Shown here: in pieces, positions 20,474-32,577 of the stretch
How positions within the stretch are numbered: position 1 is the stretch's first letter
Layout: every line of letters begins with the position of its first letter
Origin: Hydrolagus affinis
Lineage: Eukaryota
Length of the DNA: 62,180 nt
Assembly (NCBI GenBank): GCA_012026655.1
Contig: JAAILG010001749.1
Coordinates: 1-62,180 of the forward strand
Direction: 5' to 3'
Notes under the pieces: generated by a model
Databases searched by the model: none
Told to the model about the DNA's origin: nothing
The model's input: the letters and a program-made list of their open reading frames with translations, nothing else
Translations under genes and position numbers: made by a program

Positions 20474-20880
20474 TAATAACCTTTTCTGATTTACATTCAA
20501 GCTAAAAATAGTAACTGATTGCAAATCCTTGTTTACTAACACTACAACAGTTGGACTGGACAGAAATGGATAAGCAAACAGCATGCATTTTAATGACAAA
20601 ATGAATATCTTTAATATTGCAATAACAGCAGTGACTTTTTTGACTCATACATCGCAAATTTATTGTGGAGCAGGTTTCATTTCTGTCATTTTTATACTTT
20701 ATTGCAAAACAAAAGTAATTATGAGTCAGTAAATTATTAATAACAAATCATAAATGATAATAGATCCAGGCAAGTTGCTGTAGTGAATGAAATTGTAGTA
20801 CTTTCTTTGAAATGCAGTTGGGCTTATGAAGTACAGCTTGAAATGATGTACTAAATCTATTTTGCTTTTTGTACTACTGA

Positions 20881-21060
<180 letters not shown>

Positions 21061-23461: not shown

Positions 23462-24826
23462 TGGAATCAGTTGTAGCTTTCTTCCCTCAAACATCATTAA
23501 CAGTCGGAACTTTGCTCGACCTCATGTAAAAAGGACTTGCCTTGAGCTTTTGAGCTTTATCAGCCACTTATATTATCAACTTTGGAAAGTCTAGTGAAAT
23601 TCAAAATATCTTGAGCAACTGGCTTGCTGTTGCACTGGTCTTTAGCAAGAGGATGAAGTTTTTTTTAAAAAAAATCATTGAGTCTGAAGAGATTGTTCAA
23701 AGAAACTGGCTGGTACTGACCTGCGGGCCTTTCTCTTCAGTTGCATAGATCCCAGTTTATTTATTTACTGACTGAATTTAAATATTATTTATTTTCTTCC
23801 ATAATTAATTTCCTACAATTCGAAAATTGATGTGTAGCTAGCTGTAGTGAGGAACGGAGGCTTTTGTTGTTCGGGCCAGAATATAGCTGATGCCAAGGAG
23901 ATCCTCTGTTAATCGCCGTTGAAGGGGGTTTGAATTGAATCTGCCTTTAGAATCCCTGCTAGCACAACAAAATGTATTTGTTTTCAAGGGTAGTTAAACG
24001 AGCTGCAAAATGATGTGTGCTGGCAAGCGATTGTCAGAAACGAATCAACCCTCTGTGGTTTGGTTCTTGATCCAGGAGGGTCACACTACTCCAGGGCATT
24101 GCGAGACAGATCAGTCAGGACTTGGGAGGCACAGACCTGCCACTGGGAACAGAGATTCTACCCACTCAGTTCCCGTTAACCCCGCAAGCCCCAACTCTCA
24201 AAAGGATAGGTTGGTCCTAATTGGACAAGCAGTAGGAAGCTTACCAGACAGTGCTTTCAATGGCAAGCTCGGCAGTTTTAGCTGGTTAATCTCCCATCAG
24301 CACTGCAAAGCACACTTGCCTCTTGCTGACTTGAGATCTATCACTCTTTGGAATTGGGCCACTAGGATGCGTCCCTCTAGGGAGAGAGTGTGTGATCCAA
24401 ATAGGGATCCATCTTAATGAATATAGGGTCTTTCAGACCTGGTAGTCAGATTAGTACACCAGGTGAGTTTGTGTTTTATTTCCTCAATGCTGATAAACCC
24501 TCACAGAAGGAGAAACACACATATATATATACACATATATATATTTTACCAATGGCTGCATTTCATACTTAAAATCTCTCCAGCCTGTGTGGTCACAGCA
24601 GCAAACTTGTGAGAATGAGCGTCACTTTCACATTTCCTCTTCTGTGTTACTTGTTTACACTGCTTATGCTTACTGATAGTCACTTGTTCCTCAAATGAGA
24701 CCAGCGGAAGCACAATGAAACAATCTAGTGAAAGGTAGTCCGTGCTGAACAAAGAAAGTACTTGAAATTGTTATATGAAAAAAAATTGGAAACCCAAGCT
24801 ATGAGTTAATTTGCCTCACGCATTGA

Positions 24827-24943
<117 letters not shown>

Positions 24944-27104
24944 TGATTACTGTAACCACTTTAATTGGTCAATCATTTCTAAAGGCTACGCACATTCACA
25001 TTACATAACAGATGTGTGCTACTAAGTGGGGCAATGATATTACTCTAGCCTTCCTTCTGAGACTTTGGTTACTTTTTCTAGACTTGCATCATCTGTTTGC
25101 CGCAACAGTAACTCAACTTGTGCTTTCATGTTTCAGATGTTTTGTTCTAAATGTTTCAACCGATGTGTGTTCCAGGAAATCTCAACCATAACTTGCATGG
25201 ATTTGGTCTTTCATAAATGAGGCCCTGGAACGAGTTACGGTCCCTATTAATTAATTCCCTCCCTGATTTGTTGCTGCTGTCACTTTTTTTTTAATGATGT
25301 GATGTTGGCTTGAGCGTGGGCAAGTTTTCTTATACAAACAAATCTTTTCTTGAAAGAATGTGTTTTACTACTTACAACTGCGAATAGTAGACTCCAGACT
25401 CTGCTCCGCGGGGCTGGAGAGAGAGAAGCAGAGATTCCTTGGAGATGATCTGACTCCAAACTGACATCTTAGCAATGGAACTATTGGAACTGTCAATATT
25501 TCAGTCACGGTCTTAGTAATTTAGTTCTTAAGACAGGAAGGTCCGCAGTTCTCCAGGGCACTGGCTCAACGGCACGACTTGGAGGGGGGTAAACCAATCA
25601 TTGGGGGGCAGCATTCTTCCTACTTGATTCCTGTTAATTTCTCAAGCCAAATCCCTAACTTGTGAGGTCGTCTAAGCCGGATAAGCAGCAGGAAGCTTGC
25701 TCTCAATAGTAGTTTAGCCGGTTAAACTTTTGCAGTACCCCTACACGCACTCTGGGGGTCCCCATATTTAAACTCTTTCCAATTTAAGTCCAATACAATC
25801 CACAATGAGGCCCCTCCAGGGTGAGAGTGTAGCAATCCAGACACGGGGAACTTTCTGTGTCTCCCAAATCAAGTGTGGAACCTCAGTATGGTTTGCATGC
25901 TCTTCAGCATGGTGGGTTTCCATTTCAACATCTACTGACCAAAAAAAGCAAGTGTTAAGCCATTTTAGCCATTTTTAATATTGCAACAACTTTGGATAGG
26001 GGAAGACGGTGGGGCGAGGAGCAGTATATCCGCCAACACCTCCGAGCCACTGTTAGTTGAGCTTTTCAGTGCCACTAAACTTTGGAACCTCCTGACTTTG
26101 CCTCTGCCACCACCACCCCCACCCCCACCCCCCCCACACACACACTCTCTGTCTTGAAATCCCATTTTAAGAACCATCTCTTCGACCAGGCTTATGTATA
26201 GTCACTTCTCCCTCGCTCAGTGTTTGTCCCTGCCACTGTTAAGTGTGCTGAGAAGCAATCCTATGTGAAGGACTTGTACAAGTTGTTATAGATTTACTCC
26301 AGAACAGCTTGTTTGTCGGAACTCTTCTCCTGATTCCATTTTTTAAACAATAATGATACCAAAAATTAGGCACTGTAGCACCCTGAGCGTAAATGTTACC
26401 CCATGTATTATGTCATTTTCATAAGCCAAGCCATGGCCACTGTACAATTCTAAACCAGGAACTCTTGTGTAGCAAAGCTGTTTGTACTTGTGTGCTTTCT
26501 GCTGCATTTCAGAGAATCCTAGAAAATTGACAGCACAGAAAGAAGTCTTTGCTGCCTGCTGCACCCTAGCTCACTCCTGTTGGAGCTATGTGTTCAAAAT
26601 CCATTTGTTTTCCCTCTTATATCTTTCCCCCCGCAGATTTATCCAATTCCCTTTTAAATCCTGTTTTAGACCTAACTTGAACATCCATTTGTTTTTTTTT
26701 TGCTAACCTCTCTTTCTTAACCTGCAGTAATCCTAGGGATGTAGGAAAACTGTTTAAATTATATTAGCAATTATGTTTAGGTTTATTGCATTGCAAACAG
26801 TGTCTTGGGAGCAGAAGTTAAAGTGAAACTACATCAGGAGCCAGCAGTTTAGAAGCATTTCTTGTCGATCTACATTTCATGCTGTGTGTACAGTTTACAT
26901 TGGAGACGTAAAGCACAAACAGTGGTGAATGCCACAAAACATAAAATACGGTTGAAACGGTTTCAGGCATCTGGCTGCTAATGGCACAATATTTGATGGT
27001 GGAGCAAGTTGGCCAGTTATGAGGAATCTCACTGAGCTCCTGCATTGATTAACTGGGTTGTTGGGAGAGTAGAGTCAGTAAGGAAAACCATAGCATAGAA
27101 CCAT

Positions 27105-27307
27105 ATTATCCCTCAACATAAAAAAAACCACCCACACAGAATAGTAAATTGGTCACTCAGTCCACGACTGTTTGTGGGACACTGCTGTGCGCAATTGGCT
27201 GCCCACAAACATACAGTCAATTCACTTTGCAGTGTATTCTGTGAAGCACTATGAGAAGTCTAGAAGATGTGAAAAGCATTATATCAAATGCAAGGATTAT
27301 TATTATA
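27105..27307 (+). mobile_element. SINE 3' portion
   Basis: Body plus (TTA)n tail. Confidence 0.85.
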
Positions 27308-27799
27308 TGACTCAGTAGAAAGCTATTTGATCCATTGTATTGTTGTCAGTGCTTGTTCCTCCAATGAAGCCTTGTATCCTACTTCCAATTTTGGATGCTC
27401 TTAAGCATGGTGATGAGTGTATGTCAGACACCCGGCTAATCAAATCAAATAAAATTCTGTGCTCTTATCACCTTATCCTTTCAATACCCTTCCTCCACAT
27501 ATGCTTCTCTACTTCATTTTAAAAAACGATCTGCTCCTTTGGTGAATTAGCAGAAATTCTTGACTAAAGGAAACGCATTCAGCGAAGAGTCATCAGGAGT
27601 GCTGAGTTAGGCATAATATACAAATGATTATGGATGCAATATTGACAGCCTGACAAGATACGCTGGGTCATGTATTGAATTTACTATGTAGGGAAAGAAG
27701 GCGATGGATTTAAACTGGGGGAGGGTGTTGTAAGAAATAAAAATTATTCTGAATTTAAAAATTTAGATCAATGAAAGCAGTGAAAGTAAATTAAAATAA

Positions 27800-28315
<516 letters not shown>

Positions 28316-28397
28316 TAGCAACGTTTTCAGTTAATCTCTAATCTTGCCATGTGAATGCCTAGTTCATCTTGACTCTCCTTTGTTTGTTATTCCCCAG

Positions 28398-28457
28398 GCT
28401 GTCTATCTTGGATTGGTGGATGTTGAAGAGAATAAAGAAGTTGTCTGTAAGCGACCG
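28398..28457 (+). CDS. U2SURP: Candidate extra U2SURP exon O2 (60 nt): AVYLGLVDVEENKEVVCKRP
   Basis: Long pyrimidine tract ending ttccccag, CCG|GTAAGA donor, phase 0-0, no stop; peptide resembles the end of exon O. No transcript evidence available. Confidence 0.7.
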
Positions 28458-30403
28458 GTAAGAAACAGTGATCATTGAAAGTCGTGCTTTGCAAACATAA
28501 AAATCGAGTTATCTTCTACAGATTTTTTTAAGCGCCATTTGTAAATGTGCAGTGACAAAGAGTCGGGGTGGGGGTGGGTGGGGTGCGAAATCTGCCAGCT
28601 ATTTTCGTGTTGTGAAATGTTCATCATCAAATTAAAACACACATATCCAGATGTATCATTTTCGGTATGGGTTTTAAAATCCACATTATGATTGCTGCGT
28701 TTTAAAAGAACACAAATATTTCGGTATGTTTGTAGATGACAGTGAGTACCTTCTATCAAGCCTACCAGGCAGATTTTGGAGGTACGAGAAACCAAGTTCA
28801 AAGGAATTTTTTTTTAGATGTTTACGGGTTCGTTAGCAAAGAACGGACAGTAAAATCTGATCAGACATAGGAAGCAATGACTCAGTCTCAGCTAGGAAAT
28901 GCATCTCACTATGTAACAACCAATGGCAAGGGAATTGCTGGAATCCTGGGAAGGTCAGTGAGCTAAGTTGCTCTACATGAAGGACTACTCCACAGCCGAG
29001 AGACACTGCATTGTATTGTGACGCACTCAGCATGCCCTAATTGGTGTTGAGTCAACTTGGCTGATTCAGTTGGTTACAAGGAGCTCTGTGTGTGATCTCA
29101 ATGTGGGGACCAGTGCAGTCTCCTCGAATCAGGTATTAGTTGGAGATCGACAGTGGAACTTGATCCTGCACAGTTTGTCAAAAGTGACGAGTCTTGTTTA
29201 AAAAAAGAAGAGAGATTACCTGCATGTTGCAATAACAGGACTTGTGAGACAAGCAAATGTGTTAATAGAAAACAGCCATTGTTTGTTTGTATGTGTTTGT
29301 GTCCGGCGTGGAAGGCGCTATATAAATCGAAGTTGTTGTTGTTGTGTGTGAGCACTTGGAATGTGCTAAAGACTTTAAAATGCAGTGTACGTAAATGTGC
29401 AGTGATTGTGGTTGAAATGAGTGATCAAATTCTCAGCTGATATTTAAGGGTCGAAAGTTGCCATCCATGTTACAAGCAGCCTCTGAGACCAGTACAAAGA
29501 CATACAATAATTACCTAATGCCGTTGACACGAAAAAAACACATTATACAGCGTCTAGAGTGAAACTGCTGATGGTGAACTGAGACAAATGCTGCATGTAC
29601 ACGTCTTTTCATTGTTGCCCACTTCTTAACGTACTTTTATGGTTCATAATCCTTTGCGATTTACAATTCATTAACATTGAGTATCGTTGGTACTTTAGTT
29701 TTCTTTCGTCCGCTAATTACAATAATCTAGTATTTTAATTTGCATGGAAATTAAAGTTTCAAAATGCTTTGATGTGGAATGAGATGATTGAGTTTTTTTT
29801 GCTTCTATACTTGGTAAATTTCACATGTGCAAAGCTGCACAAAACTGATTGGATCAGTCGAGGTAATTTATCAAGCATGGTTAGGCCATTGAATTGATAA
29901 AATAGGCAGAGAAGAAGCAGTGAAAATTAACAGTGTATGAACAAACAATGCGTACACATCACATTGCACTCAATTACTCCCGTGTTGATGCAACGGCATC
30001 TCATATTCTTCTGAAATCGAGTCGTTTATATGATTAAACATGCAATTAATTGATCAACACTATTTGAAAATGTGCGTGGTGATATCACATCATAACTCGT
30101 TTCCGAAACATCAGGGCCATCAATGTTTTTAGAACGCTGCTACACACTTTCCCGCGTAAAGGGTGCTCTGCTAATGCTAATTGTTGTTTGAACCATCCCA
30201 GGTAGTCTACATTGTATAAATTAACCTACTGTGGAGGAAGTTTGCTTGCAAAACATCACAGATTCAGAAATCAGCCTTGTGGTTCATCCCTTGTTTAATT
30301 TGGATTTCAGCAACACAACTCAATTACAATGTTTGCCAATACTTTGTTGACATTTGCCTGGCTTTCAATATGATGTAAAATAGTCAATCTGTTTTTCAAT
30401 CAG

Positions 30404-30942
30404 TTGCCACCTCCGCAACATTGCCCAGCTCTGCCACTGCCTCACACGACAGGCCGCCAAAACTTTCAAATGTGCGTTCATAACATCCAGGCTTCACTGT
30501 GCAAATTCCTTGCTTGTTGGCCTTCCCAACTCCTCCCTCCACTGGCTGCAGATCATCCAGAACTCTGCAGGCTATGTCCTCTCCCGCACTAGGCTTTGTG
30601 ACTATATCACCCCCATCCTTCCCCGACTCCACTGGCTTTTCATCACACAGAGGATAATTCAAGATCCTGGTCCTCACCTTCAAAGCTCTCCATGGCCTCA
30701 CTCCCCCTTTCCTCTGCAACCTCCAAACCTCCTACCAACCTGCCCACTCCCTCCGCTCATCGGGCTCTGACCTGCTTCACGTCCCCGCCTTGCCTGCAGC
30801 ACCAATGGCAGGAGGGCCTTCAGCCTTCCCTCGCCTCCTTCCCGATCCCCAACCCCAGATCAAAATACTGCCTGTCCAGCGCCTTGGGGCATCCTCTCGA
30901 CATGAAAGGCGCTGTACAAATGTAATTTTGTTGTTGTTGTTG
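30404..30942 (+). mobile_element. L2-type LINE 3' fragment (degenerate ORF2 end plus tail)
   Basis: HLRNIAQL...AFITSRLHCANSLLVGLP...LQIIQNSA...ITPILPRLHWL is typical L2 RT C-terminus; (TTG)n tail. Confidence 0.9.
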
Positions 30943-31047
30943 GATGTGGTACACCGTTAGATTATGAAACAACTGGGTAAGAGTTGTAAGTTTATCCTGA
31001 TCTATTTGTACAACTCTAACGTTTGGCAAGTAATGTGGTTTTGGTAA

Positions 31048-31233
<186 letters not shown>

Positions 31234-32280
31234 TGATTGTATTATTTTTGAGAAGCATTTCTCTTTTTCAATTTGGAAACCCAAGGCCCGTAATGCAAGA
31301 GGGATTTGAGAGCCGTAGATTAATCGAAAGGTAGCGGTTCAGACGTCTGCAAACTTGGGGGTCCACAAAGATTTCAGGAAGAAGAAAAGACTCGGGGGAA
31401 CATTTGCCCATTCGCCAGATCCCTGGAAAGGAATCGGTTGGAGTAAAAATCTTAACAATAATCCTTGCATTTGATATAAAAAATGTATGTTTTGTGGGCA
31501 AAACGTAGCTGCAAATTGCACACAGCAGTGCCTCACAAACAGTAGTGGATTGAGTGACCAAATTATTCCATACCTCTGAACTAGCTAATATATATTTTAT
31601 ATTCAGTGATACTTAGTCGTATTGGTTTACAACTCTGGAATGGTGGGATATGGATTTATACTGCAGTTCCACTCAGACTTGTTCATGTCACAATGGAGAG
31701 GCATCAATATAGAGACAACACTTTCCCACAGTGAGGAGTTCTCTTAGGTCTCGCTCACACTTTGTCACAGACAATGATCACGTATGTATGGGGAGGAGAA
31801 GGAGAAAAATAAAATTGAATGAACTCCAAAGAATGTCTATTTGCCAAAGTCAGTGAATTGATTAATGATGTGTGCCTTTATGATTTGACATCTGAAACTC
31901 AATTGGCTGTTTTATTTGTGATCTGTTTCTTATATCCAGATATTACTAGGCCAATAATGTGTAAAATCCATTGGGATGTTTAAAGGAGGCAATAGATACT
32001 TGGGAAATATGGATATCAAAGAGTAAGGAGAATGGATTAAAATGGGAAATGATCCAATTTCTACTCTTTCTCTGGGTCTAAAGGGTAGGAAGAAAAACTT
32101 AAATGACTTTTACAGTAAAGACAGAATCTACTCACACGACAGACTGAACAACAGCTACAGATGTTATCATGCGGTCTTCAGTCCTTTATTGCTTCACTTT
32201 CTCAATCCATTGAGGCTTTTTATAGATTCATTCCCGTTTCTGATTAAAAGAGCTGATTAAAATCTTGAGTTTTTGGCTAA

Positions 32281-32424
<144 letters not shown>

Positions 32425-32471
32425 TAAAATAATTATGTTTGACATACTTGGCAGCCATGTCACAGTATGCC

Positions 32472-32577
32472 CTAGATCCAAAATGGAAATATCTGATTTA
32501 TCTCAAGCTTATACAAGTTTTTGACTAGATCCAAAATGGAAATGTCTGATTCATATCAAGCTTATACAAGTTTTTGA
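32472..32577. repeat. Tandem duplication, 53 bp x 2 (3 mismatches)
   Basis: ctagatccaaaatggaaat...cttatacaagtttttga at 32472 and 32525. Confidence 0.92.

What the first reader, a model, noticed from the sequence alone, without database searches (positions are those of the whole stretch)
28398..28457. Extra in-frame U2SURP exon that looks like a diverged duplicate of the end of the CID exon
Seen: 202 nt after exon O lies a 60-nt, phase 0-0, stop-free segment with a strong acceptor (tccttgtttgttattccccag-like tract) and donor (CCG|GTAAGA). It encodes AVYLGLVDVEENKEVVCKRP, which aligns with the end of exon O ([20 protein letters not shown]). In the shared core several differences are synonymous (ggc/gga, ctg/ttg, gaa/gag) or conservative (F/Y, L/V). 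Recalled: human U2SURP has a single IFLGLV motif here. Inference: partial exon duplication with a newly gained acceptor, kept as coding sequence, repeating the last CID helix either constitutively or as a cassette.
Basis: partly seen in the sequence, partly recalled or inferred. Interest (0 to 1): 0.8.

Follow-up and report, generated by a model that had tools for sequence, protein, structure and literature searches.

The report
Duplicated U2SURP exon of cartilaginous fishes
Chimaeras, sharks and most rays carry a small extra exon in the splicing-factor gene U2SURP that copies the end of the exon before it and is spliced into the message; it likely arose once in their common ancestor, likely only lengthens a flexible linker, and is already in public gene annotations.

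Summary
Real, but already annotated. The 60-nt segment 28398-28457 has AG/GT ends and an open frame, and is 35/60 identical to the end of exon O. Contigs from a related chimaera join it to the next exon in 3 of 3 contig runs. It is in 38 of 51 chondrichthyan U2SURP records, covering 19 named species. It is absent from bony vertebrates, hagfish, distant homologs and this genome's own paralog. The likely origin is one tandem duplication across the exon-intron boundary on the chondrichthyan stem: the donor was copied, and the acceptor was recruited at the Gln codon of "LQ", which in the paralog still reads as a pyrimidine run plus CAG. It repeats only the last turn of the final CID helix plus its tail, and is predicted as low-confidence coil. 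Stingray and manta records lack it and carry an unrelated 19-aa cassette at the same junction. A clean case of a known intron-gain mechanism, with later turnover; no paper found on it. Interest low to moderate.

The parts
28061..28195 (+). U2SURP exon O (45 codons, end of the CID domain); source of the duplication
   Evidence: 98% identical to the Callorhinchus milii protein
28113..28135 (+). Pyrimidine-rich coding stretch ending in the Gln codon (CAA here, CAG in the paralog); inferred template of the new acceptor
   Evidence: 13 of 17 pyrimidines; the paralog has 12 of 17 plus CAG; template role inferred
28136..28195 (+). Copy 1: last 20 codons of exon O
   Evidence: 35/60 nt identical to copy 2
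28196..28210 (+). Five-codon extension by an alternative donor at 28210
   Evidence: both donors in C. milii records and in contigs of runs X5 and X9
28196..28397 (+). 202-nt intron (from the 28195 donor) with polypyrimidine tract, CAG acceptor and a branch-point-like TTGAC at 28369
   Evidence: branch point untested
28398..28457 (+). Copy 2: the extra 60-nt in-frame exon
   Evidence: 17 of 20 residues identical to C. milii
31072..31228 (+). Exon P, acidic linker repeats; the exon to which copy 2 is joined

Best explanation
The segment is a real, spliced-in U2SURP exon that copies the last 20 codons of the preceding exon; it likely arose once by a tandem duplication in the ancestor of living cartilaginous fishes and likely acts as a mostly constitutive extension of the flexible linker behind the CID domain. 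Shown: sequence, inclusion in contigs of a related chimaera, presence in 19 chondrichthyan species, absence outside. Inferred steps: (1) a segment spanning the 3' part of exon O and its donor was duplicated in tandem; (2) the second copy kept the donor, while a pyrimidine-rich coding stretch ending in a CAG Gln codon became the acceptor, so the new exon starts at the codon after Gln and stays in frame; (3) the rest of the copy decayed into intron; (4) copy 1 still completes the CID fold, and copy 2 is an added 19-20 residues between the CID and the acidic linker, kept under linker-level purifying selection and apparently dispensable, because myliobatiform rays do without it.
For: Inclusion: a joint from copy 2 to exon P in X8, X9 and X5 (two studies); single contigs span exon O, 58 or 62 letters, and exon P in X5 and X9. 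Spread: 38 of 51 chondrichthyan records, 19 named species. Outgroups: 0 of 92 long non-chondrichthyan records; 0 of 90 placeable distant representatives; 0 of 103 short records; 15 of 693 candidates pass when the repeat is the query, all among the chondrichthyan hits; single copy in this genome's paralog. Single origin: chimaera copy 2 matches elasmobranch copy 2 at 8-10 of 11 core positions against 8 for copy 1, better in 16 of 17 comparisons. Acceptor: elasmobranch copy 2 starts with the same Asn that follows Gln in copy 1; the paralog has a pyrimidine run plus CAG at that place. Linker role: AF2 gives CID pLDDT 94-99 with the last helix at 243-254 and copy 2 (271-289) as coil, almost all below 50; core identity 88% against 100% for copy 1 and 86% for the linker behind; Leu-to-Pro and Gly-to-Glu changes are tolerated.
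Against: No RNA from the window's own species was laid; X5, X8 and X9 are contigs of a relative, flagged as RNA by guess, and contigs drop rare forms. 485 joints were not shown, so skipping is not excluded, and raw-read run X11 shows 0 reads in the listed joint row. Flanking DNA keeps no detectable similarity, so the extent of the duplication is not visible. Only 20 of 150 alignment rows carry copy 2, which lowers pLDDT by itself. 10 of 11 core residues are shared between chimaera and many sharks, more than a purely neutral spacer needs. Two UniRef C. milii records lack the segment, though they also lack the end of exon O and look like prediction artefacts. 11 cluster members were not listed.
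Confidence: 0.72

Rival explanations
1. Copy 2 is a functional second motif: it docks on the CID or swaps register with copy 1, or binds a partner, and so tunes SF3B1, RBM5 or RBM17 contacts.
For: Core conserved at 10 of 11 positions between C. milii and 8 of 17 elasmobranchs compared; the CID contacts SF3B1 and RBM5 (PMC13041897) and is predicted to bind SPF45/RBM17 (PMC13332222).
Against: It lacks most of the helix; predicted coil; Pro and Glu substitutions in the core in two batoids; absent from all 11 myliobatiform records.
Confidence: 0.13
2. The exon is a regulated cassette in chimaeras and sharks, skipped in some tissues.
For: Phase 0-0, so skipping keeps the frame; rays splice a cassette alternatively at this same junction; the joint table was cut.
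Against: No clean skip form among the 40 non-myliobatiform records (38 with the copy, 2 aberrant models); in X8 the inclusion joint depth (101) is like that of the exon P contig (94).
Confidence: 0.12
3. All of exon O was duplicated, and the second copy later shifted its acceptor inward; same product, two steps.
For: A weak diagonal runs upstream to an AG-CAA near 28317.
Against: Upstream similarity is at chance level (p=0.30-0.48); one step suffices.
Confidence: 0.15
4. The exon is older, arose in the jawed-vertebrate ancestor and was lost in bony vertebrates.
For: The distribution alone allows it with one more event; it was evidently lost once, in myliobatiform rays.
Against: No trace in any osteichthyan record examined; bichir, gar, coelacanth and lungfish were not among the named hits and no intron DNA was available.
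Confidence: 0.06
5. Chance resemblance or assembly artefact.
For: The protein-level margin over the next hit in the window is small (41 against 35).
Against: Spliced joints and orthologous segments in 19 species.
Confidence: 0.01

Closest known systems
[quoted passage not shown]
   Same: A tandem duplication activates a latent site in the duplicated part and adds codons.
   Different: Here only one site is latent (the acceptor); the donor is inherited from the old exon-intron boundary; the event is ancient and seen only through protein comparison.
Potato RdRp intron gain (PMC4974935, abstract read)
   Same: A duplication across an exon-intron boundary, with one splice site inherited and one taken from former exon.
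   Different: Mirror image: there the acceptor is inherited and the donor is new; recent, with the duplicated DNA still recognisable.
ATP2A1 vertebrate intron gain (PMC3265369, abstract and Results read)
   Same: Ancient vertebrate event; a paralog keeps the ancestral coding sequence with a polypyrimidine tract and CAG.
   Different: Precise AG|GT model with no added residues, and re-enacted in cells; here 19-20 residues were added and nothing was tested at the bench.
Tandem-exon-duplication-derived substitutions / mutually exclusive homologous exons (PMC8373072, search listing only)
   Same: Two homologous coding stretches in tandem, old and conserved.
   Different: Both copies are in the same mRNA, and copy 1 is part of a larger exon with no donor in front of it, so they cannot replace each other.
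NCBI/UniRef U2SURP records of cartilaginous fishes (for example XP_042194941.1, XP_038671148.1)
   Same: They contain this very segment, and in C. milii both donor forms.
   Different: They annotate it without noting its origin.

Membership tests
U2SURP/SR140 gene | RRM, SURP, CID and cwf21 domains in order | tested here: met
   Pfam on the C. milii ortholog; its exons map in order to the window; human chain 9r8v_SR is the top PDB hit
Bona fide coding exon | Splice signals and open frame | tested here: met
Bona fide coding exon | Spliced joints in RNA | tested here: met
   3 of 3 contig runs of a related chimaera; not tested in the window's own species
Intron/exon gain by tandem duplication with a latent site | Homology of the new exon to the adjacent exon | tested here: met
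Intron/exon gain by tandem duplication with a latent site | Outgroups and paralog keep one copy | tested here: met
Intron/exon gain by tandem duplication with a latent site | New splice site lies at a latent site of the parent sequence | tested here: met
   boundary at the Gln codon; CAG plus pyrimidines in the paralog, CAA in this ortholog today; ancestral CAG inferred
Intron/exon gain by tandem duplication with a latent site | New intron still resembles the duplicated DNA | tested here: not met
   flanks at chance level; expected for an event of this age, but it leaves the breakpoints unknown
Mutually exclusive homologous exons | Only one copy per transcript | tested here: not met
   both copies in one contig and in 38 records
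Regulated cassette exon | Skip isoform exists | tested here: inconclusive
   no clean skip record outside myliobatiform rays; joint table cut
Repeat of a CID structural element | Copy spans and folds as the last helix | tested here: not met
   covers 4 of the 12 helix residues; predicted coil at low confidence, on a thin alignment

The most novel reading that the evidence does not exclude
The junction behind the U2SURP CID is a selected 19-20-residue slot in cartilaginous fishes: filled first by a duplicate that can contact the CID or its partners, then in stingrays and mantas by an unrelated exon of the same length that became switchable, giving a lineage-specific way to tune how this scaffold spans the spliceosome.
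Probability: 0.12. Interest if true: 0.55.

Novelty: new member of a known kind. Interest (0 to 1): 0.27.

Why it matters
It is a well-resolved vertebrate example of exon and intron birth by duplication across an exon-intron boundary in a core splicing gene, with the latent acceptor still readable in the paralog. It can be rebuilt in a minigene, and it gives two rare genomic characters: one for Chondrichthyes (gain) and one for Myliobatiformes (apparent loss and replacement). It does not point to a new mechanism, and the protein effect is likely small.

Tried and rejected
Whole-exon duplication trace in the flanks: chance level. Ray cassette as a shifted or inverted reading of copy 2: best degenerate match 31/57 against a shuffled mean of 32.9, positive control 46/57. 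Ray cassette elsewhere in the window: no hit above background. Second copy in the paralog locus: none in 9.9 kb. First AF2 job (C. milii, 48 rows): mean pLDDT 43, uninformative here. Run search: no holder on record as RNA was listed; 4 of 13 runs were laid. The laid stretch held SINE copies that filled the joint table, so the skip junction could not be read. X11 raw reads were too few and their joint row was empty. Search of shorter proteins found no chondrichthyan transcript fragment with a skip junction. Gao and Lynch 2009 is not held. Earlier scan findings: none. No complex prediction was run. No dN/dS across orthologs: no ortholog DNA was available.

Full report
Observation. The segment is as described. 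Exon O runs 28061-28195 with a second donor at 28210; a 202-nt intron follows; 28398-28457 is a 60-nt, stop-free, phase 0-0 segment with a CAG acceptor behind 14 pyrimidines in 17 and the donor CCG|GTAAGA. It matches the last 60 nt of exon O at 35 positions without gaps (shuffled mean 15.9; 0 of 5000 reach it). Of 20 codon pairs 4 are identical, 4 synonymous and 12 non-synonymous; in codons 4-11, 7 of 8 residues are the same. Neither flank is similar beyond chance. The 481-nt region has one DNA match in the genome.

The gene and the organism. The C. milii U2SURP protein maps exon by exon across the window and has RRM, SURP, CID and cwf21 domains. Exon O is 98% identical to C. milii and 89% to sharks and rays, so the window is most likely from a chimaera (inference).

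It is spliced in. I laid 4 of 13 listed runs on 24700-32500. Three contig sets of a relative (X8, X9, X5; two studies; RNA by the tool's guess) show a joint at 28454 to 31069, which is the copy 2 to exon P junction shifted by three letters, probably because the relative ends the exon with a Gln codon that matches the acceptor CAG (inference from the protein). One X5 contig holds exon O to 28209, 58 letters, then exon P; one X9 contig holds exon O to 28190, 62 letters, then exon P. These fit the 28210 and 28195 donors, each with copy 2 included. Against: the raw-read run X11 has 0 reads in that row, 485 joints were not shown because SINE copies filled the table, and contigs drop rare forms. Skipping is therefore not excluded, and the window's own species was not tested.

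It is shared by cartilaginous fishes and already annotated. All 15 top hits to exon O carry the second copy; 14 are named chondrichthyan records and one is unnamed. With cluster members (15 of 20 and 15 of 21 listed in the two large clusters), 38 of 51 chondrichthyan records have it, from 19 named species: C. milii, sharks, skates, a sawfish and an electric ray. C. milii records show both donor forms. Two UniRef C. milii records lack it but also lack the end of exon O and keep four of its residues, so I read them as prediction artefacts. An unnamed batoid-type open frame runs from the end of copy 1 straight into non-matching sequence starting with Val, as an intron read-through would, so copy 2 is likely a separate exon in batoids too.

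It is absent elsewhere. No second motif in 92 non-chondrichthyan records of 450 aa or more, one hagfish record included (11 shorter ones dropped); in 90 of 150 distant representatives where the CID end could be placed (one placement was wrong); or in 103 of 104 new short records with the motif. With the repeat as query only 15 of 693 candidates passed, the same 15. Human has one copy: 33 C. milii residues stand against 4 human residues. This genome holds a paralog on contig C1322 whose matching exon is followed by the acidic-linker exon with no second copy in 9.9 kb. Gain on the chondrichthyan stem is the shortest history; bichir, gar, coelacanth and lungfish were not among the named hits. The chimaera-elasmobranch split is about 410-420 million years old (recalled). 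Chimaera copy 2 is closer to elasmobranch copy 2 than to copy 1 in 16 of 17 comparisons (Heptranchias left out for a one-residue insertion), which points to one origin.

How it likely arose. In 18 of 18 elasmobranchs copy 2 begins with the Asn that in copy 1 follows the Gln of 'LQ'. The coding sequence before that codon is pyrimidine-rich (13 of 17); the Gln codon is CAA here but CAG in the paralog, which reads like a ready acceptor. A tandem duplication covering the 3' part of exon O and its donor would thus give a new in-frame exon in one step: donor inherited, acceptor latent. The ancestral CAG and the breakpoints are inferred; a whole-exon duplication with a later acceptor shift cannot be excluded. 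This is the 'imprecise' form of intron gain by tandem duplication (PMC3443670, passages), the mirror image of the potato RdRp case (PMC4974935, abstract), and akin to ATP2A1, where a duplicated coding stretch was shown to splice in cells (PMC3265369, abstract and Results).

What it likely does. The human CID spans 534-679 and contacts SF3B1 and RBM5 (PMC13041897, passages); it is predicted to bind SPF45/RBM17, and residues 755-770 to bind CTNNBL1 (PMC13332222, passages and one section). The duplicated core equals human 673-679. In an AF2 model of the horn-shark protein on 150 rows, the CID scores 94-99, its last helix is 243-254, copy 1 supplies only the last four residues of it, and copy 2 (271-289) is coil, almost all below 50. 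Only 20 rows carry copy 2, so this is weak. A first model was uninformative. Over 19 species the first 9 residues of copy 1 are invariant; those of copy 2 vary at 6 of 9 columns (mean identity 88%), like the linker behind (86%), with Leu-to-Pro and Gly-to-Glu changes in two batoids. So it is under selection, but not like a domain core. The best reading is a linker extension between the CID and the CTNNBL1-binding part.

Turnover in rays. All 11 records from Hypanus, Hemitrygon and two Mobula species (Myliobatiformes) lack copy 2, while Pristis (Rhinopristiformes) keeps it. Six carry an unrelated 19-residue segment at the same junction and five go straight from exon O to exon P. That segment is not a shifted or inverted reading of the window's copy 2 and has no match in the window. 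This suggests the duplicate is dispensable. The equal length (19) may be chance; it is the basis of the novel case. No ray DNA was available.

Literature. No paper held both U2SURP and 'exon duplication' or U2SURP and 'elephant shark'; none of the 15 listed papers of a broader search mentioned U2SURP; two more searches listed nothing on this exon (listings only). The library lacks most subscription journals, and I read no supplements, where genome-wide lists of duplicated exons could include it. No earlier scan notes exist.

Verdict. Real, expressed in a relative, lineage-wide and annotated; origin by a known mechanism, apparently not described for this gene. New member of a known kind; interest 0.27.

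Noticed in passing
proteins P0142-P0148, P0150-P0153 (junction equivalent to window 28195/31072): Stingrays and mantas lack the duplicated exon and have an unrelated 19-aa cassette with included and skipped isoforms at the same junction.
   Followed up: partly
G000:C1322:57740-57868 (L003, L004): A U2SURP paralog, 68% identical over 40 residues of this exon, with a single copy of the motif and a latent acceptor at the Gln codon.
   Followed up: yes
window 28196-28210: Alternative donor adding five codons; seen in C. milii records and contigs, in none of the elasmobranch records.
   Followed up: partly
window 28184-28186 and 28446-28448: Reciprocal Cys/Ser pattern: chimaeras have Ser in copy 1 and Cys in copy 2, elasmobranchs the reverse. 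May be chance.
   Followed up: no
window near 20880-20900: A one-residue (Glu) isoform pair at the exon that starts the CID occurs in both C. milii and Hypanus records; looks like a conserved tandem splice site.
   Followed up: no
window 24935-28060: The intron before exon O is covered by RNA contigs and by stranded X11 reads (about 3-7 deep over 26005-28092), whereas the unique parts of the intron after copy 2 are nearly bare; possibly a retained or slowly spliced intron.
   Followed up: no
window about 27140-27306, 29137-29397, 30442-30963, 31486-31746: High-copy repeats, SINE-like, with very high read depth in all four runs.
   Followed up: no
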